Assembly: GCF_009914755.1 (NCBI RefSeq)
Contig: NC_060947.1
Origin: the human T2T-CHM13v2.0 reference genome, Homo sapiens
Strand: one strand, 5' to 3'
DNA: 64,000 bases
The notes under the pieces were generated by a model. That model saw only the letters and a program-made list of their open reading frames with translations, had not been told where the DNA came from and ran no database searches. This document shows positions 589 through 53,549 of the stretch, piece by piece (the stretch's first letter is position 1; every line of letters starts with the position of its first letter). A program made the translations under genes and the position numbers.

Positions 589-760
589 TTTTATAGTCAC
601 CACATGGTTACGTCACAGGCCACCAACTCCACATCTGACTGAATGAAGTGCCAAGCAGGGAGCCTACCAGCAATCCTCCCGGCCTCAGAGGCAACTCGAT
701 GGTCCTGTTGCTTGGCAATCACAGTGGGTGTCTGTCGACATGCTCCCCGCCTCTCACCTG
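589..760 (-). promoter_or_regulatory. H2B.W-type promoter: TATAAAA (589-595), CRE-like TGACGTAA (608-615), X-box-like GTTGCTTGGCAAT (707-719)
   Basis: Motifs read directly. The segment is colinear with the H2BW1 (42120-42270) and H2BW2 (15990-16150) upstream regions. Confidence 0.6.
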
Positions 761-1399
761 CCACGGAGCAGGTGCTCAACCCCGCCCACTCTCAACTAGG
801 GCGAGCTCTGCATTCCACGCATTCTTCCACTCCTGTTCTGCGACCACTCCAGTTCCAAAAAAGCTCGGTGGTACTACGAATCCTCTCTAAATCATACTCC
901 TCATCTGTTTATTCCTTATTTCTTCCTCCAGGAGCCCACTTTCTCTTGAGAAAGCTGCAGATCCTCGTTCAGCATGGTGCACCAGGGTTCCCAAAGACCT
1001 GATGTGTGAGGCTTCTTTGCCTTTTCATAGGTAAGGTGAGCACATAATTTCTTGTTGAATACATATGGGGGCAGCTTTCAGAGTAAATGCAGCACTATGA
1101 ATCATCGGGCTGGGACAACAGGCAAAATCAGGACGCGTGGCCACCCTTCTAGGGGAAAGATCTGGGGATAGAATAAGGGCATCCTTTGGGGTTTGAAACA
1201 CTAAAGTTCTTGGGTAATGAGACCAATTTACTTTTAATAGCTTTTTTTTTGTCTTCTCTTTGAAGTTCTGGTGACTTTATTTCCTGGAGGCAACTAGTGT
1301 GGCTAGGCTGCATTAACATGGGAAAATGACACAACATCGTGAGAACGTCTGTTTGGGTCTTAGGACTCATGTGAGCTAGTGGGACCAGACTCGACTGCA

Positions 1400-1590
1400 A
1401 GAGTGATTGAGGGCACGGGTTTGGGAGTCAGAGGAGATCTGGGTTCAGACCTCAGCTGTGCCTCTTACTGGCTGTATTGCCTTGCGCAAGTGGCTTGACT
1501 TCTCTGAATCTCAGTTTCCTCCTCTGTGGAATACAGATCTAGAAGGTGGTTGTCAAGATCCAGGGTGATGATGCAGATGGGGTGCCAGAT
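1400..1590. mobile_element. MIR (also in paralogous copies ~7620-7800 and ~49100-49280)
   Basis: MIR core: caagtggcttgacttctctgaatctcagtttcctcctctgt. Confidence 0.7.
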
Positions 1591-3999
1591 ACATAGTCTG
1601 CAACCAATGAATGTCGGCTGTACGTGGTTCCAATACCGAGATTCGTGTCCTCGGGCAATCACAGGTGGTGGGGGTGGGATCCAGTGCCAGACAGCTGTAT
1701 GAACACGCTCTCCTGGCTACCTGGGCCCCATCTGTTTGCTTCGGGCTGACAGTGAGATAAGGGACAATGACTTTTCCCTCCTGAGCCACATGTTAGTGAA
1801 GCGGTGGAGATAATTCTGCTCTGAGTCCTGACGGGAAGTTGCTGGGGAGCAACTTTACAGTGCTCCTGGCTTGGGGCACTACCCACTCGGGGCTTTGTGG
1901 CAAGCTATTCCCCCTCACGGCCAAGGAACCTGGCTTCCCATACCACCTCCTTTCCTCCACCCACCGTCTCCCTATCTGAATCCTATTCACTTTTCAGGTC
2001 TTGGCTCAAATCCTGACTCCCCTGTGAAGATGTCCTGACCCTCCCAGCCTAGAGCCACTACTCCCTCCTTGAATCTCAGGATCTCCAACTGTGACATGGC
2101 CATACTATTTGCCACATCCCCACAGACGGATTGTGATGAGGAAGGAAAGAGAGAGTCCATGTAGCATGCTAGATGCGGTGTCTGGTGCAGGCCTGTGGTG
2201 AGTTCCCTGCCTCTTCCTCTTCCTCCCCTCTGACCCCCAGCATGCAGGCATGGCGGCCTTGATCACCTGCTGCCTTCTCTAGATAATCCTTGGGGATCAT
2301 TCCTGTGCTAGTTGTCCCCTCAGTTGCAATGTCACAGACCATGGGGCCACATCTCATCCTTCCTCACCTTCCAGCATCCAGCACTACAATAAACACCATC
2401 GTAACCATTTTTCATTGGGCATCTTAGGGTACCATGTGGCAGGCACTCGGCTGTGTAGGTAATGCACACAAGTGTAGTCCTCACTCATTCCCCTCCTAGC
2501 TCTCTTCCAGGATGTGCAGGCATTGATTCTCCTTTGAGTTATATCAGACAGATTGTGTCAACCGCTACCAAGGTCGCATCATGAGTAAGTAGCCCTGACA
2601 GGCATCAAGTACTATGCTAGATTAAGTTTCTAATGAATGCCTGCGAAAGGGTGGTTGGCAGGAGGGACAGATGTAGAGCCCAGAGTACGACTGCCTGCCC
2701 CGTGCTTTTACCCGGCAGAGGCAGGCCTGCTTGAGAGAAAGCTGTACGCAATAAAGACATAGGATTCAGCGGGTCCTCGAGCTTAGGAAAGGGGATATAG
2801 TCGCTCCAGGACAGGGGGAGAAATGGAGAGGGGATGAGTCACGCTAAACCTCAAGGCAACTGTCCCAGGGAATTCCACAGTGGCTCCAGTATCCCCCAAA
2901 ATAGTAGCTGATGACCTACCCACAGGCCATCCTCGAGATGAACTGTAGAACAAGCCCGGGTCAAGCGAGCCTCCTTGGAAGACATTTGTTAGCCTAGAAG
3001 ATGTTGAATCCCTTGGGAGCCCACGATGGGCATTTCACTCCTACAGATCCGTGAGTGAGAACCAGGCCACAAGATCACCCATGTGACCTATGATGCAATG
3101 AGGAGACAGGCTCCACTGTGCTTAAGTGTCCCTTGCAAATAGAAGCCAGAGGAGCCGCACTCAGTGCTATTTATTCACCCTATGCCTAAGGTCATTGGGG
3201 AAGGTCCCAGACACCTTGTACTGGCATACTTGATGCCTTGGAGGGGCTGGCTGGAGGGCTGAGCTCAGCTGGGCCTCTGCACCTCTCCAAGGCCCCTCAG
3301 AGCATATCACTGTGGTGTCTCCAGCAGGAGAGGTGGGCTTCTTTCGTGGCAGCTCAGAGCTCTCAGACAGCCAGGCAGAGGCCATTCTAGTCCTCTGAAA
3401 GGTTACCTCTGGGACAGGCTAACGTCCACCATTCTCCATGTGTCAAAGCCATCACAGGCTTGTCGGGAGCCCAGAGGGAGGGGCAAACAGATGCGACCAA
3501 TGGGCCAACGGGAAGAGCATTCAGGAATGAGCAGTCTTTCTGAGATGCGGCCTATTCAGCATACAATTCTTGAGATGCTGCTGGGTGGTACACATGGAGC
3601 ATGTGCATAAAAGAAGAGGTGCTTTACTCTCTGGGTCAAAGCGGTAGGCTCTCTAATGGTTTTAGGTTGGACCTATCACTATAGGGTGACCTCTCCCATT
3701 TAGTGGATCCTCCTTCTCCATGCCGCAGTGATTGCCCTTAAGTGGCATGGAGTTTCTAACCATTATAGATGCTCTTTCTCCCTTCTGGGGCCCTGGCCAT
3801 ACATAAACAGACACACAGAACAACATTAAGGAGAATATGGGAAATCAGTACTTGTTAATAGTAGCTTGACTAGAACCTGGTCTCAATATCTGAGCCTCCA
3901 GATTAGGGGCCCCCGAGTGTTCCAAATTCCCTCATCAACCTCCTCTTTCAGGGCTCCCCTAAAATGTGGCACTCCAATGACAATCCATCCCTCTCTATG

Positions 4000-4641
4000 G
4001 AGCCTACGACAGCACACACCTCAGCGTTCTAGAGAGGACAGGTTTCAGGCCACCGGAGGAATTTAGGGAGTGACTACAGGAGCGACCTTATCCCACACTG
4101 TTTGAACAAGCACTGTGGGCCAATGGCCATGGACTGAGCCAGTGGAAAGTGGGGCTTGGACCCCTCTGATTGGACGTTTCCATCATCCCAACGATGCGTT
4201 AGTTCCAAGTCATGAAGGTGGGTATTTCCAGAAATAAAACAATATAACCTGGAAAAGAACAGACAGAATCAGATACATTAGAAGTAGTTGGAGTAATAAC
4301 TTCAGTTTCTAGGGAGCTTGGAGAGGTATTGATTCTTGAACTTTATGATGTACTTATGTCATCAAAAACACATACATTTTGTGGATGGGTGATACTAAGA
4401 TATTTATTTATTCTTTTTATATAGTTTATATATATATATATATATGTTACATATATGTATTTTACATTATATATCTTTTTTAGTTTTTTCTTATGACTGG
4501 GTCTCACTTTGTCACCCGGGCTGCAGAGCAATGACGCCATCTCGGCTCAGTGTAGACTGGACAATCTGGGTTCAAGCGATTCTCCCACCTCAGCCCCATA
4601 AGAAGCTGAGACTGCAGGCATGTGTCACTGCGCCTGGCTAA

Positions 4642-4674
<33 letters not shown>

Positions 4675-5970
4675 TTTTGTATTTTTGGTAGAGATGGGTT
4701 TCCCCATGTTGCCCTGGCTGATCTCGAATTCCTGAACTCAATTGATTCACCCGCCTTGGACTCCTGAAGTGGTAGGATTACAGGCACTGTGCCGGGCCCT
4801 AGATATTTAAATGATGTCCATAATATGGGTCCTGTTGTAAGAAACAACCTGGTTGGTTACGTCTGTCGTATTAATACATCTGTTTTCTAGGTTGACAGTT
4901 ATACTTTGTCACAGAAGCAGTAAAACCATTTCCTTTTAGATTGTCCTTTCCGTAAACCTCACCATCAGATCACGAAGCCTCCCTAGGCGTCCTTTTTCCT
5001 CCTGCACCCGCTGAAGTCAACAATCAGATGTCCTCACCTCCCCTTGGATCTTCCACATCAAACCCCATTTCCCTCAACTCCTTCCTAAATTTCATTAGTG
5101 TCAGTCAACTTTGAGCTTCTGGGCTTCAAGTCTGCAGCCCGCTTCTGATGCATTTTTGAATGTCGTATGGACAAACACTGGCATTTTGAAGCAGTAGCAA
5201 TGAGCATGACGGAAATTAAGTGATGTGTAGAGAAATTATATATTTTTTTCCTCTGATGCATAGAGTTCTGTTTTGGAAAGTGTGCACATGCCCGCAGAGA
5301 TCCTTTGTTTTCCAATAGTTTAAGACAAACTCAAGGCACCACCCAGAGGGATTGGCTTGCAGTTGAATTGTAGTAGTTTCTCCTAGTCTGCTTAGGAAAA
5401 AAATGTTTTTCCAAGTCTTTTCATGATGTTCATTTACTTCTCCAGAATAAAAATAAGTAATGAATTTTCTGAGGTGGCTCTTTGTCCTAAATTTTCACCC
5501 TCATGATCCAAAGAAGAGTCTTGAAGATATCATTTCCCACCAGAATTCTTGTGATTTAGGCCTTGAAAACACAGACATTTATTCCCACTCCTCAATCTAG
5601 CATTGTGCCCTTCTTGCCTGGGCTACTCAAGGATGCTTCCCCTAGTATCCTCCCTTACCCCCATTCATTTACTTGAGGTCACAGGGGTCTACCGAAGTTA
5701 AAGAAACTTTGTGTTTTATCTCTCCTGGAGGGTTGTAAGCTCCTTCTGATGGGCTACAGAAAAGCGTTCATTTTTGGACACTATCCAACATTGGTCACAT
5801 GGTTTCGCTGAAAGTGATGACCCTTATAGGTTTGTACCTACTACTGAATGGTGGAGTTTACAAGTTATCATAAAAGTGCAAATGGAACACTTAACAAAAT
5901 TAGCCAAATCTAGGACTTTAAAGCAAATAGTCATACATTTCTGAGGATTGAAATCACAGAGTATCTTCTC
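4000..5970 (-). pseudogene. Diverged H2B.W 3' relic (intron 2 / exon 3 / downstream flank), no coding exon
   Basis: Colinear, low-identity match to 12650-14280, e.g. ggcaccacccagaggggattggcttgcagttga vs ggcaccatccagaaggatttacttgcagctga, and cttctgatgggct in both. Confidence 0.7.
4474..4798 (-). mobile_element. Alu (old, AluJ-like) with (TG)n in the middle linker
   Basis: Alu consensus in reverse; (TG)n at ~4644-4672. Confidence 0.9.
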
Positions 5971-9739: not shown

Positions 9740-12570
9740 AATTACATTCATTAAGGTGTGCTCTAACCAAAATGACTAGAATGCATTCTGCATACCATAA
9801 GGGGAAATTCAGACACAGAGACATGCGTCCAGGGAAGAAAACGTGAAGTGGCATGGGGATAAATGGGCCACTTACAAGCCAAGGAAAGATCCCTGGAAGA
9901 GATCCTTCCCTCTTACTACTCAGAAGGAACCAACACAGCTGGCACTTTGATTTGGACTTCCAACCTGCTGAACCGTGAACAATAAATTTCTGCTGTTTAT
10001 GCCATCAGATCTGTGGTACTTTTTCAGAATAGCCCTAGCAAACTACTAGAGACTCTGTTGCCAAGCAGTGGGATGATGCAATAAGGAACCTCCAAAGATT
10101 GGACGAGGCCTCGGAACTAGGTAATGCATACAGGCTGGAAGTGTTTTGACATGCATGACACAAGAAGCCTAGAGTGACTTTAGGAAACAGCGGAGGGAAA
10201 TATGAACACCAAATGCAATTGAAACGAGGGCTAAGAAGAATTATTTGCTGTAGAGAAAGGATCTCTGACTTAGAGAATACATGTATCATGATCACCGAAA
10301 TGTTGCTAGAACTATGTGTGTTAAAGGTGCTTGTGGCGTGTTTGCAGACGGAGACTACGAAGAGGTTATTGGAAGCATGAGGAAAGGCCATCCTAGTTTT
10401 ACAGTGGCAAAGATTTGGGCTGTATTGTGTTCTTAGTGTCTTTGAGGAAAGCAGAATTTGTAAGTGATGAACTTGCACATGTAGCTGATTTCTAGTTTTG
10501 GAGTTCAGGGCACAATACCAAAAAATGGGGGCTTCAGAAGTATTTTCAGATAAAAAAGATTTTCTCTGACATTCTTGGTCCTCCTGTCTCTCAGTCCCAT
10601 TCAACCTCAGGGGCTAAACCCAGGAACCAGAATCCTTCTTCCCGAAGGTGGGTTCTAGAAACCAGAAGCTCTTTTTTATAGTCACAAAACCAAGAAATGA
10701 TATTGTAATATCTTCCACATTTTCATGTAAAAACTGTCCATGAAGAAATGATCTAACCTATCTTCTTTGAATGGAAGTCAGAAGACCCCCATTCCAGAGA
10801 GGGTCCTGCCCCGTATCCGGGAGGAAGGACTGTGTGCTCAGATAGGCCAAGCAGAGTCTAGACACACAGGCCTTGCCAGGTTTCCCCCACTCAGCCTATT
10901 CGCATTAGATCATAGTCTTTTTGTCCCATCATATTTCTACACAGATGTCCATATTCCTTTAAGCCAAGGCATAAAAATGGATAATAATTTCCCATGTATC
11001 TTTGGCTATTAACACTAAAGACTCCCAGGGAGACACATTGTATAAGTTGGTATGCCTTATGTCCTATGGATCTGCCTTTTGTGACTTGAGTTTTCAGTGA
11101 AACTTAAGAGGACAAGGGGGGAATCTTGGCCACTACACTGACAAACTGAGAAAAGTATTTAGGATTTAATCTGGTTTCTCCTAGATCTGTATAGTGAATG
11201 GGAGAGAAGAGAGAGAAATTAGCAAAGGAAGAACTGAGTAAAAGGAAGTCAGCATTGGATGACTCAGAAGGTACTCAAAAGATGCAGATACCTTGCTCTG
11301 GAAATAGGTGCAAGGGTGTGCCTGGAAGACCGTTAGCTAAAGAGGGGAGGTATGTGTCTCACAGATCCAATCAACTGTCTCTGCAGAAGTTAGGAATTGA
11401 AATATGGAAGATATTGGTATTCACGAAAGATCTTTAGACAACTTCTTGTCTGATGGCCTGGACGCATGTGAATTCCGTGGGAAGCCAAGAATTTTTTGAG
11501 AATTTTACAGCAGAAAAACATTGCCAGACTGGACTGAACGGGACAAAGATGGGACGAAATTCAAGGAGGCTGTTAGAGTTCCTGGACTGTACCGGCAAGA
11601 AAGGGACTGACTGAGGCACCCAGCTGTGACCATTTCTTCATTTTCGAGACAGGGAGGAAGGACTCCAAAGTTGGGTCAGAGGTTGGCATGGCCGTCACTG
11701 CCCCCAAGAACCAGGGGCACGGTACTAGGGGACTGGGCCATCTCTCTCTTGGTCCCAGAAATGGAGGTCACCTCCTGAGTTCCAGGCATTTGTCCCACCT
11801 CCTCGGTTTCAGAGGGATGGGCTGCAGCAGCCCAGGCTGGGGGGAGAGCCCCCACCCGGCTGCCCAGGGCTTAGGGTGTGAAGCTGTTACCCCATTGGGC
11901 CTGAAGGACAGAGCACTGAGCCCAAGCAGAATCTTTTCCATCTTTAGAATGTAACGGAATTTGCCCCCATTAGGTTTCAAAAGTGCTTAGGGCCCACGTA
12001 CTCCAGTAGTTTTTCGGATTTCCTGCTTTTGGTATGATAAGCCCTATCTGGTATCAGTCTCACAACTGTCTTTCAGAAGGAGATAACTTGTCTAGCTTCA
12101 CAGATGCAGTGGTGGAGAGAATTCCCGCCTCAGCATGAATCATACCTGGAGGCTCACCCATTCCAGATATAGAAGATTATCAGGTGAGATATTAGAGAAT
12201 TGACGTTGGAGTGAGTTAAGTCTTCAGGGATGTTGTGATGAAATGAATGTATTTTCTATGTGAGGTTGTTAATTTGTGTCACGGAGTGGTGCAGAAGGTG
12301 TACTAGTATGTATGGAGTTGTGTCTCCCTACAATTCAGAGGTAGAAGTCCTGGCCCCCAGTGTTTTAGAATGTGACCTTATTTGGAGAGAGTCTTTAGTC
12401 AGGTCATCTGGTTAAAGTGAAGTTATGAGGGTTGACCTTATCCAACAGGATTGGTCTCCTTACAAAATGGTGACAATTGTAATCCAGAACTGTGAGATAA
12501 AAAATACATAGTGTTTAAGTCAGCCAGTCTCTGGAATATTTTTCAGCGGCCCTAGAAAACTGATAGAATA
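9740..12570 (+). mobile_element. ERVL-MaLR LTR/internal block with a nested ERV1-type LTR (~10495-11137)
   Basis: MaLR LTR motifs (gaaccgtgaacaataaatttctgctgttt; aatgtgaccttatttggaga) and internal-like sequence. Paralogous blocks at 45700-48450, 53470-54890 and 57847-59900. Confidence 0.65.
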
Positions 12571-13459
12571 CACCTCCATCAGAAGCATTGAAAGCATACA
12601 ACCCATCGAAGAGCCAAAGAAGCACACCCATGTAATCACAGGTTTCCCCTTCAACTCCCATTGAACATCCCTGGACAACTAACTCTACCTATTTCAGACC
12701 AGGAAACCTGATCACACATTGGGCCATGGCCCCTTGGCTGCAGTTGCCTCACTGGCTGACACGGATCTGAGTGGAGCTTGTGCTGCTCCATTGGACGGCA
12801 TTCCATCATCCCCATGATGCACTGAGGCCAGTCATGAAGGTTTTCTTAAACAAAAGATTCTAGCCTGAAGAAGAGCAGAATCAGGTAAATCTAAACAAGT
12901 GAGATTTCATTACGAAGGAGCCTAGAATAGGTATTGTTCCTTAGACTTTTTGATGTAGTTTTCTCTGCCGTGTTTGTGTCCTTGCTTATATTTTCAAATG
13001 AACTCCAGGTTACAGGGAAGGCTGATCAAATGTTTGACTGGACTCTCTTTATCCCATTCATGCTGTTTTCCCTACATTGATACTTCTTATTTGTTGTTTA
13101 AGCAGTAAAGGTCTTTCCCGTAGTTTGCGTTTCTTTAAGTCACAGCATGACATCATGATTGCCTAATAGGTTCCGCTTCTGCTCAATGACCCAAAGAAAT
13201 ACCATATCAAATGTGTGAGCTTCCTCCTCCGATCTTCACATCAATCCACCCCTTTCCTCTTTCTTCCTGTAATTCACCGGCATCAGTCCCCTTGCCCCCT
13301 CACTCTTCACTCCCCACAACCAAATCAGATTTCATTGTTAACCCTGTTTTACTAATGGCCCTCTTTGATTTCTGAATTTACAAAGGGAAAACACATATTC
13401 CAAGGTAAAATATCTCAGTGGATTTGGTTTCTCAAAAGGACTTGTCTAATTACACACAT

Positions 13460-13803
13460 ATGCAAGGGTAACTTCAGAAATTTATTCGTATGTCTTAATT
13501 CACAGAAACATTGGCATTTTACAGCAAAACAATTAGCATAATGAGAAATAAGTCACTGAGTGAGATGTGGTGTTTTGTCAGGTACACAGCTCTGTCTCTG
13601 GGAAGAAGCAGGGTTCTGGCAAGGGTCTTTGGTTTGGCAAGGGTTGTTCCGGACTTGTAGGAACATTTGGTGGCACCATCCAGAAGGATTTACTTGCAGC
13701 TGATTTTGTGGGGTTTTTCTTGGTCTCCTCGTGCAATAAGCACAACTTCAACTATTTTCATAACATTTCTCTTCAGCTATTTCTGTAATATTTTTCTAAT
13801 AAT
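13460..13803 (-). other. H2BW2: H2BW2 predicted non-coding exon 3 with AATAAA (13481-13486)
   Basis: Acceptor tttcttttttttccag at 13804 and poly(A) signal, both conserved in the H2BW1 arm. The 3' end is approximate. Confidence 0.65.
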
Positions 13804-15050
13804 CTGGAAAAAAAGAAAGTAACAGATCCCAATGAGTGGACTTCTTGGTTCTATATCATTTCTCTATGGATCCCAAGTGGAGCTCTGGAGGTGACCTTCC
13901 CCTCTTCCCATCTGCACTACTCAGGGAAGCTCTGGCTACCATCTTGCCCTGACCCTGTTTCCCTCTTGACCAAGGGGTCCTCTTTAAATGGTGGAATAAT
14001 CTATGTGGCTATGTGTTGGGCCCTCTGGGGTGGTTCTTTCCCACTTCTGATGGGCTCAAGAAAATTTTGATTTTTGTCATTTATCCAGCTTTTGTTTCAT
14101 GGTTTGACTGAGAGTGCCATCCTTTACTGGTTTCTACATATGAAGGAGAAGGGTTGTTTATGAGATGTTTCAAAATTTACGGGAAACATTTAACAAAAAT
14201 GGCCACATGTTGAGCTTCAAGGCACAACATAATAAATTCCTGTGGGTTGCAGTCCCAGAGTATGTTCTCTTGTCCACATACTCGGGCGACTGGAAATCAA
14301 TGGAAAAGGAAAGCAATGGGAAAGTGAGCACCTGCTCTGAAATTCAGCAATACACTTATAGAAAAAAATGCTTAAAATGCCAAGACTTGGGACCCAGAAG
14401 AGAGCACAATGAAAGGTAGCCTATATTAATATTAACATGAATATAAATATGCTAATCTTTTGAGGAAATAAGCCTTATCTGACTTCTACTAATGGTTGCC
14501 AATGTTCTGTATAACTTGATGTTAGGGACAAGGTACATATTCTAATCTTAGCTTTGGATTCATATCCCTAAAAGATCATGATTACAAGCAATGCAAACAA
14601 AAACATCAGGTAAAGAATCACACTGCCGTTCCTTTAAACACCAGGTTGAATATAACAGGAAGGCTGCTGTGGGTTCAGCTTGGGTCACTCCCCCCACATT
14701 GGGTCAATGACTGTTGCTCATAGACTGCAGGTCACTCATTGGCTGTACCACTGTACACTAGGGCATGAGCTGTTTCCGTGGACACTCCGTAATCCTACTG
14801 ACACACACCTGGAAGTAAGGAAGGTTTCTGTTCAAAAAGAAATGAAAAAATTACTGTCAGTACAAAAAGAGAATGAATTACAATAGTGGTCTCAGAGTCG
14901 GGGAAGCTGGAAAACGAATGGATTCTTGAAAATTTTATTTAGCCATATATATACTGTAACTGGGCCTCGTTTGCTTATTTACATGGATTCATGATGAGAG
15001 AGATGCTGAACACATTTAGGAGGGTTACCTTGCTTCTTGTATCAGCATAT

Positions 15051-15087
15051 TCACTTTCTCTGTTGCCATATCGCACATAATGAAGTT
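15051..15087 (-). CDS. H2BW2: Histone H2B.W2 (H2BFM) coding exon 2: (R)TSLCAIWQQRK*
   Basis: Acceptor tttccag at 15088. The 428+37 nt spliced CDS gives 154 aa, matching the H2BFM C-terminus as recalled. Donor AAG|GTAACC at 15029. Confidence 0.9.
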
Positions 15088-15437
15088 CTGGAAAATCCCA
15101 CCATCCAGTCGTAGGAGAATGAGAGTGAAAAAGGTAAACATCAGTACATTGATAACATCATCATAAAGATAACCTAGAAAGATAACTAAGAAAAACGGCC
15201 ATTTGGGAAACTGAGGACACGAAACACGATTACGGAAACACCCCCTACTTTTCCTTGGAGCATATTGCACTACAGATATATTGGAGTTGACAGTGTTTTG
15301 CACTGTGGGAAAAATGCTTGAAAAACCGCAGGAGGCCACACGGCACATGCCCCCCAAGCTGGAACGGTGCCACCCACACCAACCTCCGGTGGGGTCCCCC
15401 CCTTGGCGGGCCACTGGCCTATAGGGCCACGGGCGGT

Positions 15438-15453
15438 GGTTCTGAATAGAGCC
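15438..15453 (-). terminator. Degenerate histone 3' stem-loop within H2BW2 intron 1
   Basis: CCCAAA-GGCTCT-ATTC-AGAACC-ACC vs canonical CCAAA-GGCTCT-TTTC-AGAGCC-ACC; 38 nt after the unspliced TGA. Confidence 0.85.
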
Positions 15454-15510
15454 TTTGGGTTTCCCAGGTGCTCAGGCGCTCCTGAGACAGCTCACTTGCT
15501 TTTGGTGTAC

Positions 15511-15938
15511 CTGAGGGCGGCATTCGTGCCCTGGGCCTCGGCGAGCTTGCCCATCTTCCCCGGCAGCAGCAGTCGCACGGCCATCTGGATGTCCCGGGAG
15601 GTGATGGTCACGCGCTTGGTGTAATGGGCCAGCTGACCAGCCTCGGTGGCGATGCGGTCCAATATGTCATGGATCATAGAATCCATGACACTCACGGCCT
15701 CCTGGGAAAGGCTGAGGCCCTGGTGAACCTGCTTCAGCACCCGGGGGAAATAGGGGGTGAAGCTGTCCCCGAAGCTGTCCCCACGGCGGTTGGCGTGGCG
15801 CCTGCGGGAGCCTCGGCACCCTCGCCTCTTCTGCTTCTGGGCCTTCGTGGAGTTGGCCTCTTTGGGCTCCTGGATGCTCTGGCCTTCCTCCGAGGTTGTC
15901 TCAGAGGAAGCCTCAGCCATGGCGGAAGCAGCGGCCAT
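15511..15938 (-). CDS. H2BW2: Histone H2B.W2 (H2BFM) coding exon 1
   Basis: MAAASAMAEASSETTSEEG...DSFTPYFPRVLKQVHQGLSLSQEAVSVMDSMIHDILDRIATEAG...RLLLPGKMGKLAEAQGTNAALR is an H2B histone fold. Donor CAG|GTACAC at 15511/15510. Confidence 0.97.
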
Positions 15939-15989
15939 TAGATAGCAAGAACAGAGAGTGACGGTTGGGGACCAGGGAAGTGGGGGGCA

Positions 15990-16485
<496 letters not shown>

Positions 16486-42320: not shown

Positions 42321-42745
42321 ATGGCCACTGCCTCCGCCATGGCTGGACCTTCCTCTGAGACGACCTCTGAGGAACAGCTGATCACCCAGGAGCCCAAAGA
42401 GGCCAACTCCACTACGTCCCAGAAGCAGAGCAAGCAGAGGAAGCGAGGGCGCCATGGGCCCCGCAGGTGCCACTCCAACTGCCGCGGGGACAGCTTCGCC
42501 ACCTATTTCCGCCGGGTGCTGAAGCAGGTTCACCAGGGCCTCAGCCTTTCCCGGGAGGCCGTGAGTGTCATGGATTCTTTGGTTCATGACATATTGGACC
42601 GCATCGCCACCGAGGCTGGTCACCTGGCCCGCTCCACCAAGCGCCAGACCATCACTGCCTGGGAGACCCGGATGGCTGTGCGCCTGCTGCTGCCGGGGCA
42701 GATGGGCAAGCTCGCCGAGTCCGAAGGCACGAAGGCTGTCCTCAG
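42321..42745 (+). CDS. H2BW1: Histone H2B.W1 (H2BFWT) coding exon 1; in-frame upstream ATG at 42255 gives the 175-aa form
   Basis: MATASAMAGPSSETTSEEQL...DSFATYFRRVLKQVHQGLSLSREAVSVMDSLVHDILDRIATEAG...EGTKAVLR. Donor CAG|GTACAC at 42745/42746. Confidence 0.97.
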
Positions 42746-42802
42746 GTACACCAGGAGCAAGTGCGCTCCCTCAGGAGCACCCGAGCACCACGGGAACCCA
42801 AA

Positions 42803-42818
42803 GGGTCTTTTCAGAGCC
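42803..42818 (+). terminator. Degenerate histone 3' stem-loop (plus HDE-like GAAAGACCAGTG at 42833-42844) within H2BW1 intron 1
   Basis: CCCAAA-GGGTCT-TTTC-AGAGCC-AC: one mismatch from canonical GGCTCTTTTCAGAGCC. Confidence 0.88.
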
Positions 42819-43166
42819 ACTGAATGTGGCCTGAAAGACCAGTGGCTCGCCAAGGGGGACACCACCGGAGGCTGGGGTGGGTGGTGCCCTTCCGACTTGG
42901 GGGGCATGTGGCGTGTGGCATCCTGCAATGTTTCAAGCATTTTCCCCTCAGTACTAAACATTGTCAGCTCCAATATATCTGTAGTGCAGTTTGCTCCAAG
43001 GAAAAATAGTGGGTGTTTCCGTGATCGTGTTTCATTTCCTCAGTTTCGTAAACGGTCATTTTTGTTAGTTATGTTTCTAGGCTATCTATATGGTGATATT
43101 ATTACTGCACTGATCTTTACCTTTTTCTGTCTCATTCTCCTGTGACTGGATGGTGGAATTTTCCAG

Positions 43167-48448: not shown

Positions 48449-51400
48449 TGCCGCAGAGCAAGTGCTCAACCCTTCCGACTCTCAACTAGGGCGAGCTCTG
48501 CGTTCCACGCATTCTTCCACTCCTGTTCTGCGACCTCTCCAGTTCCAAACAAGCTGCGTTGTACTAGGAATCCTCTCTAAATCATATTCGTCATCTGGTT
48601 ATTCCTTATTTCTTCCTTCAGGAGCCCACTCTCTCTTGGGAGAGCTGCGGATCCTCGCTCAGCGTTGTGTGTCAGGGTTGCCAAAGACCTGATGTGTGAG
48701 GCTTCTTTGCCTTTTTCATAGGCAAGTGAGCACATAAGTTCTTGTCTAATAAATGTGGGGGCAGCTTTCAGAGTGAATGGGGCACTACGAATCATTGGGT
48801 GGGACAATAGGCAAAACCTGTACGTGTGGCCACCCCTCTGTGGAAAGATCTGGGGATAGAATAAGAACATCCATTGGGGTTTCGAACACAAAGTTTGGTG
48901 GGCAATGAGAGCGATTTACTTTTAATAGCATGTTTTTCATGATTTCTTCTCTTTGACATTCCTGTGCTTTTGTTTCCTGGAGACAACTGGTGTGGCTAGG
49001 CTGCATTAACATGGGAAAGAGACACAACACCATTAGAGCGTCTGTTTGGGTCTTAGGACTCATGTGAGCTAGTGGGACTGGACTCGACAGCAAGAGTCAT
49101 TGAGAGCATGGGATTGGGGGTGAGAGGAGACCTGGGCTCAGACCCCAGCTGTGCCTCTTAGAGGCTGTACCGTGTTGGGCAAGTGGCTTGACCTCTCTGA
49201 GCCTCAGTTTCCTCCTCTGTGGAATAGGGCTCTAGAAGGTGGTTGTGAAGATCCAGGGTGATGATGCAGACGGGGTGCCAGATACATAGTCAGCAACCAA
49301 TGAATGTCGGCTGTACCTGGTCCCAATTTCGAGATTCCTGCCCTCCGGAAATCACAGGTGGTGGGGGTGGGATCCAGTGCCAGACAGCTGTATGAGCACA
49401 CCCTCCTGGCTACCTGGGACACATCTGTTTGCTTCGGGCTGACAGTGAGATAAGGGAGGATGATTTTTCCCCCCTGAGCCACATGTTAGTGAAGCAGTAG
49501 AGATAACGCTGCTCTGAGTCCTGACGGGAAGTTGCTGGGGAGCAACTTTAAAGTGCTCCTGGCTTCGGGCACTAACCACTCGGGGCTTTGTGGCAAGCTA
49601 TTCCCCCTCACGGCCAAGGAACCTCGCTTCCCATACCACCTCCTTGCCCCTGCCCACCGTCTCACTATCTGAATCCTATTCACTTTTCAGGTCTTGGCTC
49701 AAATCCTGACTCCCCTATGAAGATGTCCTGACCCTCCCAGCCTAGAGAGACTGCTCCCTCCTTGAGTCACAGGATCTCCAACCGTGACATGGGCACACTG
49801 TTTGCAACATCCTCACAGACGGATTGTGATGAGGAAGGAAAGAGAGAGTCGATGTAGCGTGCTAGGTGCAGTGTCTGGTGCAGGCCTGTGGTGAGTTCCC
49901 TGACTCTTCTTCTTCCTCCCTTCTGAACCCACAGCATGCTGGCATGGCGGCCTTGATCACATGCTGCCTTCTCTTGATAGTCATTGGAGATCATGTCTGT
50001 GCTAGTTGTCCCCTCAGTTGCAATGTCACAGACCACGGGGGCCACATCTCATCCTTCCTCACCTTCCAGCATCCAGCACTACAATAAACGCCATCGTAAC
50101 CATTTTTCATTGGGCACCTTAGGGTACAATGTGGCAGGCACTCGGCTATGTAGGTAATGCACATAAGTGTAGTCCTCACTCATTCCCCTCCTAGCTCTCT
50201 TCCAGGATGTGCAGGCACTGATTCTCCTTTGAGTTATACCAGACAGATTTGGTCAACCGCTACCAAGGTCGCATCATGAGTAAGTGGCCCTGACAGGCAT
50301 CTAGTCCTATGCTAGATTAAGTTCTAGTGAATGCCTGTGAATGGGTGGTGGGCAGGAGGGAAAGATGTAGAGCCCAATATAGCAGTGCCTGCCTTGTACT
50401 TTTACCAGGCAGAGGCAGGCCTGCTTGAGAGAAAGCTGTAGGCAATAAAGACATAGGACTCAGTGGGTCCTCGAGCTCAGGTAAGGGGATATAGTCCCTC
50501 CAGGACAGGGGGAGAAATGGAGAGGGGATGGTTCAAGCTAAACCTCAAGGCAGCTGTCCCAGGGAATTCCACAGTGGCTCCAGGATCCCCCAAAATAGTA
50601 GCAGATGACCCACCCACTGGCCATCCTCAAGGTGAACTGTAGAACAAGCCCGGGTCAAGAAAGCCTCCTTGGAAAAGGTCTGTTAGCCTAGAAGATGTTG
50701 AATCCCTTGGGAGTCCACAATGGGCATTTCACTCCCACAGATCCTTGGGAGAGAACCAGGCCACAAGATCACCCGTGTGACCTATGATGCAATGAGGAGA
50801 CAGGCTCCACTGTGCTTAAGTGTCCCTTACAAGTAGAAGCCAGAGGAGCTGCACTCAGTGCTATTTATTCACCCGATGCCTAAGGTCATTGGGGAAGGTC
50901 CCAGACAGCTTGTACCAGCACGCCTGATGCCTTGGAGGGGCTGGCTGGAGGCCTGAGCTCAACCGGGCCTCTGCACCTCTCCAAGGCCCCTCAGAGCATA
51001 TCACTGTGGTGTCTCCAGCAGGAGAGGTGGACTTCTTAGGGGGCAGCTCAGAGCTCTCAGACAGCCAGACAGAGGCCACTCTAGTCCTCTGAAAGGTTAC
51101 CTCTGGGACAGGCTAAAGTCCGCCATTCTCCATGTGTCAAAGCCATCAACGGGCCTGTCGGGAGCCCAGAGGGAGGGGCAAGCAGACGCAACCAATGTGC
51201 CAATACGAAGAGCATTCAGGAATGGGCAGCCTTTCTGAGATGCAGCCTATTCAGCACACGCTTCTTGAGATGCTGCTGGGTGGCACACACAGAGCATGTG
51301 CATAAGAAGTGGTCCTTTAACTCTCTGGGTCGAAGGGGTAGGCTCTCAAATGGTTTTACACTGGACCTATCACTAGCAGGGTGACATCTCCCATTTAGTG

Positions 51401-52368
51401 GATCCTCCTTCTCCATGCCATAGTGATTGATTGCCCTTAAGTGACATGAAGTTTCTAACCATTATAGACACTCTTTCTCCCTTCTGTGGCCCTGGCCATA
51501 CATAAAAAGACACACAGAATAACAGTAAGAAGAATATGGGGAGTCAGTACTTCTTAATAGGAGGTTGACTAGAACCTGGTCTCAATATCTGATCCTCCAG
51601 ATTTGGGGCCCCCAAGTGTTCCCAATTCCCTCATCAACCTCTTCTTTCATGGCTCTCCAGAATCTGACACTCCAATGACAATCCGTCCCTCTCTATGGAG
51701 CCTACAACAGCACACATCTCAGCACGCATCTCAGAGGACAGGTTTCAGGCCACCGGAGGAATTTAGGAGTGAGAACTGCAGGAGCGATCTTATCCCTCGC
51801 TGTTTGAACAAGCACTGTGGGCCAATGGCCATGGCCCAGGAGCCGCAGGGCCTTCATGGACTGAGCCAGTGGAGAGTGGGGCTTGGACCCCTCTGACTGG
51901 ATGTTTCCATCATCCGAACGATGCGTTAGTTCCAAGTCATGAAGGTGGGTATTTCCAGAAATAAAACAATATAACCTGGAAAAGAACAGACAGAATCAGA
52001 TACATTAGAAGTAGTTGGAGTAATAACTTCAGTTTCCAAGGAGCTTGGAGAGGTATTGATTCTTGAACTTTATGATGTACTTATGTCATCAAAAACAAAT
52101 ACATTTTGTGGATGGGTGATACTAAGATATTTATTTATTCTTTTTATATAGTTTATATATATATATATATATGTTACATATATGTATTTTACATTATATA
52201 TCTTTTTTAGTTTTTTCTTATGACTGGGTCTCACTTTGTCACCCGGGCTGCAGAGCAATGACGCCATCTCGGCTCAGTGTAGACTGGACAATCTGGGTTC
52301 AAGCGATTCTCCCACCTCAGCCCCATAAGAAGCTGAGACTGCAGGCATGTGTCACTGCGCCTGGCTAA

Positions 52369-52417
<49 letters not shown>

Positions 52418-53549
52418 TTTTGTATTTTTGGTAGAGACGGGTTTCCCCATGTTGCCCTGGCTGATCTCGAATTCCTGAACTCAATTGATTCACCCTCCTT
52501 GGACTCCTGAAGCGGTAGGATTACAGGCACTGTGCCGGGCCCTAGATATTTAAATGATGTCCATAATATGGGTCCTGTTGTAAGAAACAACCTGGTTGGT
52601 TACGTCTGTCGTATTAATACATCTGTTTTCTAGGTTGACGGTTATACTTTGTCACAGAAGCAGTAAAACCATTTCCTTTTAGATTGTCCTTTCCGTAAAC
52701 CTCACCATCAGATCACGAAGCCTCCCTAGGCGTCCTTTTTCCTCCTGCATCCGCTGAAGTCAACAATCAGATGTCCTCAACTCCCCTTGGATCTTCCACA
52801 TCAAACCCCATTTCCCTCAACTCCTTCCTAAATTTCATTAGTGTCAGTCAGCTTTGAGCTTCCGGGCTTCAAGTCTACAGCCCGCTTCTGATGCATTTTT
52901 GAATGCTGTATGGACAAACACGGGCATTTTGAAGCAGTAGCAATGATTATGACAGAAATTAAGTGATTTGTAGAGAAATTATGGTTTTTTTTTCCCTCTG
53001 ATGTGCAGAGTTCTGTTTTGGAAAGTGTGCACATGCCCACAGAGATCCTTTGGTTTCCAATAGTTTAAGACAAATTCAAGGCACCACCCAGAGGGATTGA
53101 CTTGCAGTTGAATTGTGGTAGTTTCTCCTGGTCTGTTTAGGAAAAAAAAAAGTTTTTCCAAGTCGTTTCATGATACTTGCTTAATTTCCCAGAATAAAAA
53201 TAAGTAATGATTCTTCTGAGGTGGCTCTGTATCCTAAATCTTCACCCTCATGATATATGCAAATATATAATATATATAATAAAATTACTCAACATTCATG
53301 TAGACTTGTAAAAACATGGGGAGGGATCACCTTGTTTCCCTTCATCAGTCACCAGTGTTCTCTTAACATACTGGAAAAGGCAGGAGATATTCACACCTAC
53401 AACTCATGATTCCTATGTCCTATGCGTTCTGTGTGTCCCCTTTTGCCCCTGCCCCACCAAATACATGAATTGGTCTCCTAACCTCTCATCTCTCTTCCAC
53501 TTAAAGATTGTTTCTTTACCGGGGTACTCAAGTGAAATTACATTCATTA
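48449..53549. repeat. Copy 2 of direct duplication (partner 759-6332), including an H2B.W 3' relic at ~51700-53250
   Basis: Colinear match; begins exactly where inverted-repeat arm B ends. Confidence 0.95.
52201..52541 (-). mobile_element. Alu, duplicate of 4474-4798
   Basis: Nearly identical to the first copy apart from a longer (TG)n. Confidence 0.9.

What the first reader, a model, noticed from the sequence alone, without database searches (positions are those of the whole stretch)
15438..15511. Intact ancestral H2B C-terminus and stem-loop hidden in H2BW2 intron 1
Seen: without splicing, H2BW2 ends AALR-YTKSK-TGA (canonical H2B: AVTK-YTSSK-stop), and a histone stem-loop follows 38 nt later. 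Known: replication-dependent histone mRNAs end in this SLBP-bound hairpin and are cut by U7 snRNP. Inference: the gene carries two 3' programmes, an unspliced 148-aa canonical-tail form and a spliced, polyadenylated 154-aa TSLCAIWQQRK form. It is either a snapshot of conversion to a replication-independent variant or a still-used switch.
Basis: partly seen in the sequence, partly recalled or inferred. Interest (0 to 1): 0.8.

Follow-up and report, generated by a model that had tools for sequence, protein, structure and literature searches.

The report
Decayed histone stem-loop fossil in H2BW2 intron
The first intron of the human testis histone gene H2BW2 still holds the old end of an ordinary H2B gene, its last five codons, its stop codon and a worn-out histone 3' hairpin, which looks like a leftover from when this gene changed to splicing and a poly(A) tail.

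Summary
On the minus strand, read-through from exon 1 of H2BW2 gives ...NAALR-YTKSK-TGA (stop at 15494-15492). A histone-type hairpin follows 38 nt later (15453-15438), with CCAAA and ACC flanks. A 24-nt consensus with up to 3 mismatches hits only this site and the same spot in H2BW1, against 0 expected.

The hairpin is not intact. It has a C.A mismatch at stem pair 3, A instead of U at loop position 1, and no purine-rich downstream element. It scores 16.7 bits on Rfam Histone3 (cut-off 34) and folds at -2.8 kcal/mol, no better than shuffles. H2BW1 carries the same relic with different damage: a G.G mismatch at the same pair, and the stop changed to TGC.

The relic diverges between the two paralogues at least as fast as the surrounding duplicated DNA. 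In published H2B.W sequences, 14 of 17 non-simian proteins end in a five-residue canonical-type tail. All 3 simian sequences seen have the spliced tail.

Best reading: a decaying fossil of an intron gain. Raman et al. 2022 already reported stem-loops plus poly(A) signals at H2B.W genes. Present-day use is unproven and unlikely.

The parts
15511..15920 (-). H2BW2 coding exon 1 (RefSeq start; an in-frame ATG also lies at 15938). It ends in ..NAAL + AG of the Arg codon.
   Evidence: Hub annotation; sequence and translation.
15505..15513 (-). 5' splice site CAG|GTACAC. The GT is formed by the third base of the Arg codon AGG and the first base of the ancestral Tyr codon TAC. The sequence is identical in H2BW1.
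   Evidence: Consensus matching at -3..+3 but not at +4..+6 is judged from general knowledge, not scored by a tool.
15492..15509 (-). Relic of the ancestral C-terminus: codons Y-T-K-S-K (15509-15495) and stop TGA (15494-15492), now the first bases of intron 1.
   Evidence: It aligns with the last residues of canonical H2B (..AVTKYTS..).
15454..15491 (-). 38-nt relic 3' UTR spacer between the ancestral stop and the hairpin.
   Evidence: The distance lies within the 25-60 nt range quoted for histone mRNAs in the preprint read.
15438..15453 (-). Decayed histone hairpin GGCTCT ATTC AGAACC. Pairs 1, 2, 4, 5 and 6 form; pair 3 is a C.A mismatch; loop position 1 is A. The G-C at pair 2 and the U at loop position 3 are kept.
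   Evidence: non-standard pair marked in the alignment; -2.8 kcal/mol, z -0.92.
15413..15458 (-). Full Rfam Histone3 (RF00032) match, including the CCAAA and ACC flanks. There is no AAA or AAGA purine element in the 60 nt after the stem.
   Evidence: 16.7 bits, gathering 34, E 0.029 in 141 nt; E 0.58 in 2.8 kb; downstream sequence printed.
15051..15087 (-). Coding part of exon 2, which replaces YTKSK with TSLCAIWQQRK in the spliced mRNA. The stop lies 22 nt before the exon 2 donor.
   Evidence: Hub annotation. PDB entry 9jc6 uses this spliced tail.
42747..42764 (+). H2BW1 copy of the relic tail: Y-T-R-S-K followed by TGC (Cys) where H2BW2 has TGA. The unspliced frame runs on to 268 aa.
42798..42843 (+). 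H2BW1 copy of the relic stem-loop: hairpin GGGTCT TTTC AGAGCC at 42803-42818, with a G.G mismatch at the same pair 3. A purine element GAAAGA lies at 42833-42838.
   Evidence: 22.2 bits, gathering 34; -5.5 kcal/mol, z -0.37.

Best explanation
This is a molecular fossil. H2B.W descends from an ordinary intronless H2B gene whose mRNA ended ..YTxSK-stop, then a spacer of about 30-40 nt, then the SLBP hairpin. In the simian lineage, a 5' splice site at the Arg-Tyr junction (AG|GTAC) came into use together with downstream exons and an AATAAA signal. As a result, the last five codons, the stop, the 3' UTR spacer and the stem-loop became the start of intron 1. The mRNA became spliced and polyadenylated and gained a new 11-residue tail.

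The duplicated ancestor of H2BW1 and H2BW2 still had a perfect canonical hairpin. This is inferred by parsimony. Since then each copy has decayed on its own at about the neutral rate. The relic in H2BW2 most likely has no present function. Its intact TGA is survival by chance over five codons.

Shown here: the homology, the damage, and the lack of extra conservation. Inferred: the order of events and the present lack of use.
For: (1) Homology to a canonical H2B 3' end. The tail aligns to the last residue of canonical H2B chains. The hairpin with its flanks is the top Rfam hit. Only these 2 sites in 64 kb match the consensus, with 0 expected.

(2) Damage. H2BW2 has a C.A mismatch at pair 3 and A at loop position 1, scores 16.7 bits against a cut-off of 34, and folds at -2.8 kcal/mol with 39 of 200 shuffles folding at least as well. 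It has no AAA or AAGA downstream element in 60 nt (criterion from the preprint read). H2BW1 has a G.G mismatch at the same pair through a different substitution, scores 22.2 bits, and its stop has become TGC.

(3) Inferred ancestor. The three differences between the two 16-mers each have the consensus base in one copy. The chimeras that take the pairing base at the two stem positions fold as a perfect 6-bp stem at -9.3 to -9.8 kcal/mol.

(4) No constraint. The first 126 nt of the intron are 80.2% identical between the paralogues. The rest of intron 1 is 84.8% identical, and the whole 6.4-kb inverted duplicate is 87.6% identical. The hairpin shows 3 differences in 16 nt where 2.0 are expected.

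(5) Outgroups. In Raman et al.'s supplementary sequences, 14 of 17 non-simian H2B.W proteins end in exactly five residues beginning with Y or F after the R/K position (mouse YISNK, elephant YKSRK, bushbaby YRVRK, mouse lemur YSRRK and others). Human W1, human W2 and macaque W1.3 (3 of 3 simian sequences seen) have R-TSL..QQRK.

(6) Mechanistic precedent. HIST1H2BC, BD and BK use a 5' donor between the stop and the stem-loop that removes the hairpin and yields spliced poly(A) mRNA (PMC5100578, passages). Inserting an intron blocks stem-loop processing (PMC3661734, passage).

(7) The annotation supplied by the hub lists only spliced transcripts. The solved nucleosome structures 9jc6, 8jcd and 8jcc use the spliced tails. 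AATAAA sits at both 3' ends.
Against: Several features needed for SLBP recognition survive in H2BW2: the G-C at stem pair 2, the U at loop position 3, the CCAAA and ACC flanks, and a correct distance from an intact stop. One stem mismatch does not automatically exclude a working histone hairpin, because the survey read accepted one mismatch.

The 5' splice site matches the consensus only at -3..+3, so some unspliced RNA is plausible. Raman et al. found little H2B.W signal in poly(A) RNA-seq and suggested alternate processing themselves.

The paralogue comparison cannot detect weak constraint on 16-26 nt. Gene conversion between the inverted arms could blur the history. No RNA, SLBP-binding or cross-species DNA data could be examined here. 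The authors themselves warn that their non-primate C-terminal annotations may need revision.
Confidence: 0.8

Rival explanations
1. The two programmes are still in use. In some germ cells the intron-1 donor is skipped, SLBP and U7 snRNP cut the transcript about 5 nt after the hairpin, and a non-polyadenylated mRNA encodes an H2B.W2 with the canonical-type YTKSK tail.
For: The stop is intact and lies 38 nt upstream of the hairpin. The pair-2 G-C, the loop U3 and both flanks are kept. The intron side of the donor is weak. Raman et al. detected H2B.W poorly in poly(A)-selected data and speculated on alternate processing.
Against: The stem is broken at pair 3 and loop position 1 is A. The score is 16.7 bits against 34, and the fold is -2.8 kcal/mol, no better than shuffles. 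There is no purine-rich downstream element for U7 in 60 nt. The relic is not conserved relative to neutral flanks. The sister gene lost the stop, so the unspliced reading frame has not been maintained in the family. The annotation supplied lists no unspliced transcript. From recall and not checked here: SLBP binding studies found an intact stem and the loop uridines to be important.
Confidence: 0.1
2. The relic is reused for something other than 3' end formation. For example, it could be an intronic element that binds SLBP or another factor to tune splicing of intron 1. Alternatively, intron retention could yield an NMD-sensitive transcript that lowers expression.
For: If intron 1 were retained, the TGA at 15492 would lie more than 400 nt upstream of the later exon junctions. 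Under the 50-55 nt rule quoted in PMC5100578, that would make the RNA an NMD target. The weak donor makes some retention plausible.
Against: There is no conservation signal. The two paralogues differ at exactly the positions that would matter (stop codon, stem pair 3, loop position 1). No data point to such a role.
Confidence: 0.05
3. The resemblance is a chance match with no histone ancestry.
For: The hairpin is below the Rfam gathering score, and its E-value in a 2.8-kb search is only 0.58.
Against: The match has 22 of 24 consensus positions, with 0 of 100 shuffles giving any hit at up to 3 mismatches. The element sits at the expected distance after a stop that aligns with the canonical H2B stop. 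The paralogue has the same element at the same place with a higher score.
Confidence: 0.01

Closest known systems
Stem-loop plus poly(A) signals at H2B.W and H2B.1 genes (Raman et al. 2022, Mol Biol Evol, PMC8857922)
   Same: Same genes and same model. [quoted passage not shown] In both human genes the only Histone3-like hit is the intronic relic, so it is presumably what they saw.
   Different: The passages I read call the location the 3' UTR. They do not say that in human the element lies inside intron 1, behind the ancestral YTKSK-stop. They also do not say that it is damaged differently in the two paralogues, or that H2BW1 has lost the stop. Their figure S15 could not be seen (only its title), so it may show more than the text.
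Spliced, polyadenylated mRNAs of the replication-dependent genes HIST1H2BC, HIST1H2BD and HIST1H2BK (Lyons et al. 2016, PMC5100578; Kari et al. 2013, PMC3661734)
   Same: An H2B gene with a 5' splice donor upstream of the stem-loop. Splicing to downstream exons removes the hairpin and gives a poly(A) mRNA. The stop lies close enough to the junction to escape NMD. In H2BW2 and H2BW1 the stop lies 22 nt before the exon 2 donor (and the annotation).
   Different: In those genes the donor lies after the stop, so the protein is unchanged. Both modes are in use and the hairpin is intact. In H2B.W the donor lies five codons before the ancestral stop, so the protein tail is replaced, and the hairpin has decayed.
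H2AX, one gene with a stem-loop mRNA in S phase and a poly(A) mRNA outside it (PMC9526256, passages; PMC7807067, listing only)
   Same: A variant histone gene that carries both kinds of 3' signal.
   Different: According to the passages read, H2AX has no intron and makes a working stem-loop mRNA, the poly(A) form being an alternative 3' end. Here the hairpin is intronic and degenerate.

Membership tests
Histone 3' UTR stem-loop (Rfam RF00032) | Covariance-model score at or above the gathering score (34 bits) | tested here: not met
   H2BW2 scores 16.7 bits and H2BW1 22.2 bits. Nothing in the window reaches the gathering score.
Histone 3' UTR stem-loop (Rfam RF00032) | Six-base-pair stem with a four-base loop | tested here: not met
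   The loop has 4 nt, but only 5 of 6 pairs form in each gene. Pair 3 is C.A in H2BW2 and G.G in H2BW1.
Histone 3' UTR stem-loop (Rfam RF00032) | G-C at stem pair 2 and U at loop position 3 (the diagnostic positions according to the preprint read) | tested here: met
   Both are present in both genes (sequences).
Histone 3' UTR stem-loop (Rfam RF00032) | Conserved flanks (CCAAA on the 5' side, ACC on the 3' side) | tested here: met
   Alignments to the model consensus. H2BW2 has ACCACC and H2BW1 has ACCACT.
Histone 3' UTR stem-loop (Rfam RF00032) | Lies about 25-60 nt after a stop codon (range) | tested here: met
   In H2BW2 the stem starts 38 nt after the TGA, but that stop is only read if intron 1 is not spliced. 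In H2BW1 the stop has been lost.
Histone 3' end processing signal (stem-loop plus HDE) | Purine-rich histone downstream element after the cleavage site (AAA or AAGA motif criterion) | tested here: not met
   H2BW2 has no AAA or AAGA in the 60 nt after the stem. H2BW1 keeps GAAAGA at 42833-42838. Complementarity to U7 snRNA itself was not computed.
Histone 3' end processing signal (stem-loop plus HDE) | Binds SLBP and is cleaved by U7 snRNP | not testable with these tools
   This needs an EMSA, in-vitro processing or 3' end mapping.
Canonical-type H2B C-terminus | The alpha-C region is followed by a five-residue Y-T-x-S-K tail and a stop at the homologous codon | tested here: met
   The unspliced 148-aa translation aligns to the last residue of many canonical H2B chains, for example 5kgf_D 3-126 of 126. 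The tail YTKSK corresponds to ..KYTS.. in the printed alignment.
H2B genes whose stem-loop is removed by splicing (HIST1H2BC/BD/BK type) | A 5' donor upstream of the hairpin, with downstream exon(s) and a poly(A) signal | tested here: met
   The donor is at 15511/15510 and the hairpin at 15453-15438. AATAAA lies near the annotated 3' end (hub annotation).
H2B genes whose stem-loop is removed by splicing (HIST1H2BC/BD/BK type) | Both the stem-loop mRNA and the spliced mRNA are produced | not testable with these tools
   No RNA data are available here. The annotation lists spliced forms only.

The most novel reading that the evidence does not exclude
H2BW2 is still a dual-mode gene in human germ cells. 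A fraction of transcripts skip the weak intron-1 donor and are cut at the degenerate hairpin. They give a non-polyadenylated mRNA for an H2B.W2 with a canonical-type YTKSK tail. That protein would lack the simian-specific 11-residue extension. Its existence would explain why H2B.W is hard to see in poly(A) RNA-seq.
Probability: 0.1. Interest if true: 0.6.

Novelty: already known. Interest (0 to 1): 0.28.

Why it matters
The relic shows, base by base, one way a replication-type histone gene can turn into a spliced, polyadenylated variant. A Lys-to-Arg type codon (AGG) next to the Tyr codon TAC gives a GT. Once that donor is used, the old tail, stop, 3' UTR and SLBP hairpin are swallowed by an intron and the protein gains a new tail. 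This is the same trick that HIST1H2BC, BD and BK use facultatively. Here it appears to have become the only annotated mode, with a change in the protein.

The practical value is modest. It explains the 'stem-loop' hits reported near human H2B.W genes. It also warns that such hits in simians are intronic relics, not evidence of a stem-loop mRNA. It gives a defined peptide (..NAALRYTKSK) and a defined RNA end (about 15433) to look for, should anyone want to test the alternate-processing idea raised in 2022.

Tried and rejected
- Rfam at gathering thresholds over the whole window gave nothing. The relics appear only with E-value thresholds.
- Folding the native 28-mers gave no stability signal over shuffles.
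- Cross-species DNA could not be obtained. The sequence collections on hand hold microbial, viral, phage and plasmid DNA, so none was searched. The comparison rests on protein sequences in Raman et al.'s supplement, where long nucleotide rows were cut.
- Their figure S15 was not readable (one search gave only its title).
- Churikov et al. 2004 (the original H2BFWT paper) is not in the library and was seen only in reference lists. Boulard 2006 was not held. A PMC id that I recalled for the SLBP-RNA structure paper was not held either. The SLBP sequence requirements are therefore taken from a 2026 preprint and from recall.
- The search for 'second base pair' SLBP papers gave nothing useful.
- Searches for any paper placing the hairpin in the intron of H2BW1 or H2BW2 found only Raman et al.'s general statement.
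- MS_HistoneDB lists H2BFM isoforms but says nothing about an unspliced form.
- U7 snRNA complementarity and a quantitative splice-site score were not computed, because no reference sequence or matrix was available from a tool.
- H2BW3P and H2BW4P lie outside the window and could not be compared.

Full report
**What is there.** H2BW2 lies on the minus strand. Its first coding exon ends at 15511 with ..AAT GCC GCC CTC AG, and the next bases are G TAC ACC AAA AGC AAG TGA. Read without splicing, the frame gives ..NAALR-YTKSK-stop, with the TGA at 15494-15492. After 38 more bases comes GGCTCT ATTC AGAACC (15453-15438), preceded by CCAAA and followed by ACCAC.

The stated lengths (148 aa unspliced, 154 aa spliced) hold from the in-frame ATG at 15938. 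From the RefSeq start at 15920 they are 142 and 148 aa.

**Is it more than chance?** Yes.
- A 24-nt histone stem-loop consensus with up to three mismatches hits two places in the 64-kb window, each with two mismatches. None of 100 dinucleotide shuffles gave any hit.
- The two places are this one and the exactly homologous position in intron 1 of the paralogue H2BW1 (42798-42821).
- Rfam's Histone3 model (RF00032) is the best family match at both and the only Histone3 match anywhere in either gene.
- The unspliced 148-residue translation aligns with canonical H2B chains in the PDB up to the last residue of both query and chain, for example residues 26-148 against 3-126 of the 126-residue 5kgf_D. 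The TGA therefore sits at the ancestral H2B stop position.

**It is a worn copy, not an intact signal.**
- In H2BW2 the third stem pair is a C.A mismatch and the first loop base is A where the consensus has U.
- The model score is 16.7 bits against a gathering score of 34. No hit in the window reaches a gathering score.
- The 28-mer folds at -2.8 kcal/mol, and 39 of 200 shuffles fold at least as well.
- The 60 nt after the stem contain no AAA or AAGA. That is the purine-motif criterion for the histone downstream element used in a recent survey (preprint 10.64898/2026.10.14.759114, passages read).
- What does survive is the G-C at stem pair 2, the U at loop position 3 (the two diagnostic positions named in that preprint), both flanks, and the spacing from the stop.

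**The paralogue tells the history.** H2BW1 has the same layout..AVLR-YTRSK, then TGC instead of TGA, so the unspliced frame runs on to 268 residues. Its hairpin is GGGTCT TTTC AGAGCC. The same third pair is broken, but by a change on the 5' side (G.G). The loop is consensus, and a GAAAGA element remains at 42833-42838. It scores 22.2 bits and folds at -5.5 kcal/mol.

The two 16-mers differ at three positions, and at each one of the copies has the consensus base. Combining the pairing bases at the two stem positions gives a perfect six-pair stem at -9.3 to -9.8 kcal/mol (all 32 combinations folded). By parsimony, the common ancestor of the two genes had an intact canonical hairpin and each copy has been damaged separately since. 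This is an inference.

The two genes lie in an inverted segmental duplication (9790-16192 against 48451-42068) that is 87.6% identical over 6434 aligned positions. The duplication includes the introns and exon 2. Both genes have the same donor (TCAG|GTACAC), near-identical acceptors and nearly the same new tail. The intron therefore existed before the duplication. Gene conversion between the arms could confuse this picture.

**No sign of constraint on the relic.** Identity between the paralogues is as follows:

| Region | Identity |
|---|---|
| First 126 nt of intron 1 (the relic) | 80.2% |
| Rest of intron 1 | 84.8% |
| From intron 2 through intron 3 (incl. exon 3) | 87.9% |
| Coding exon 1 | 84.4% |
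| Whole duplicated arm | 87.6% |

Against the arm average, the relic has 25 differences where 15.6 are expected, so it changes faster rather than slower (P = 0.012 for an excess). The hairpin has 3 differences in 16 nt where 2.0 are expected. These are small numbers and cannot exclude weak constraint, but nothing suggests that the element is being kept.

**Outgroups, from the literature only.** No tool here could fetch mammalian DNA. The supplement of Raman et al. 2022 (PMC8857922) gives H2B.W protein sequences, and I read the passages returned.

- I saw 17 non-simian sequences with a complete C-terminus. Of these, 14 end exactly five residues after the R/K position, beginning with Y or F, as canonical H2B does with YTSSK.
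- These are: mouse YISNK; rabbit W1 FITHP; rabbit W2 YKRRK; two sheep YHLCR; cow W2 YHTCR; elephant YKSRK; panda FQRCE; dog W1 YARRQ; dog W3 YTFSK; horse W1 and W2 YISRR; bushbaby W1 YRVRK; mouse lemur W3 YSRRK.
- The three exceptions are rabbit W3, dog W2 (..LMR-NQVGALEK..) and horse W3 (..VLR-GFFML..). The last two change right after the same Arg, which could mean the same donor is used or predicted there. I did not test this.
- All three simian sequences seen (human W1, human W2, macaque W1.3) have R-TSL..QQRK.

The authors caution that non-primate termini may need revision. The dating is an inference.

**How it most likely came about and works now.** The donor's GT is made of the last base of the Arg codon AGG and the first base of the Tyr codon TAC. 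Where canonical H2B has Lys-Tyr (..TKYTS..), H2B.W has Arg-Tyr. Using this donor with downstream exons and an AATAAA signal has two effects. It removes the hairpin from the mRNA, and it replaces the last five residues by eleven new ones.

This is the same principle that Lyons et al. 2016 (PMC5100578, passages) described for HIST1H2BC, BD and BK. In those genes a conserved donor between the stop and the stem-loop yields spliced poly(A) mRNAs that lack the hairpin and escape NMD. Kari et al. 2013 (PMC3661734, passage) note that including an intron prevents stem-loop processing.

In H2BW2 and H2BW1 the new stop lies 22 nt before the exon 2 donor. By the 50-55 nt rule quoted, the spliced mRNAs should also escape NMD (inference). 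A transcript retaining intron 1 but spliced downstream would stop at 15492, more than 400 nt before later junctions, and should be NMD-sensitive (inference).

**Could the old programme still run?** This cannot be excluded without RNA data. Points for it:
- The surviving diagnostic bases and the intact stop.
- The weak intron side of the donor.
- Raman et al.'s difficulty in detecting H2B.W in poly(A) data.

Points against it:
- The broken stem, the changed loop base and the missing downstream element in H2BW2.
- The loss of the stop in H2BW1.
- Neutral-rate decay of the relic.
- An annotation with spliced forms only.
- A review table listing H2BFWT as '2 introns, polyA+' (PMC4584325).
- Solved nucleosome structures built with the spliced tails (9jc6, 8jcd, 8jcc).

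I put present-day use at about 10%.

**Novelty.** Raman et al. [quoted passage not shown] They used RF00032 within 600 bp of the stop, and they speculated on alternate processing. The core of the finding is therefore in print.

Four full-text searches and the passages I read turned up no statement of three details. First, that in human the element is intronic and sits behind the ancestral tail and stop. Second, that the two paralogues carry different lesions at the same stem pair. Third, that H2BW1 has lost the stop. Their figure S15 and Churikov et al. 2004 could not be seen and may cover part of this.

**Verdict.** Its evolutionary reading is right and its functional reading is probably wrong. 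Overall it is a tidy refinement of something already reported.

Noticed in passing
window 42746-42843 (+): H2BW1 intron 1 starts with the same relic: YTRSK, then TGC instead of a stop, then a hairpin with a G.G mismatch at stem pair 3, a consensus TTTC loop and a GAAAGA element at 42833-42838. It scores higher on Rfam Histone3 than the H2BW2 copy (22.2 against 16.7 bits).
   Followed up: yes
window 9790-16192 against 48451-42068; also 759-5507 against 48449-53254: H2BW2 and H2BW1 sit in an inverted segmental duplication (87.6% identity over 6.4 kb). Further direct and inverted repeat blocks are 79-91% identical. With the flanking H2BW4P/H2BW3P and lncRNA pairs listed by the hub, the locus looks like a large palindrome.
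   Followed up: partly
window 15511-15920 (-) against 42339-42745 (+): Coding exon 1 is less conserved between the paralogues (84.4%, 64 differences against 50.9 expected, P = 0.03) than the duplicated arm as a whole. This fits the rapid evolution and positive selection that Raman et al. report for H2B.W.
   Followed up: partly
window 15921-15938 (-): An in-frame ATG lies 18 nt upstream of the RefSeq start and adds MAAASA. The 154-aa sequence in Raman et al.'s supplement starts there, while RefSeq and PDB entry 9jc6 ('isoform 2') start at the second ATG.
   Followed up: partly
Raman et al. supplement, not in the window: Dog H2B.W.2 and horse H2B.W.3 have unrelated tails that begin right after the same Arg as the human splice point. 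This hints that the AG|GT donor may be used, or predicted by gene finders, in other mammals as well.
   Followed up: no
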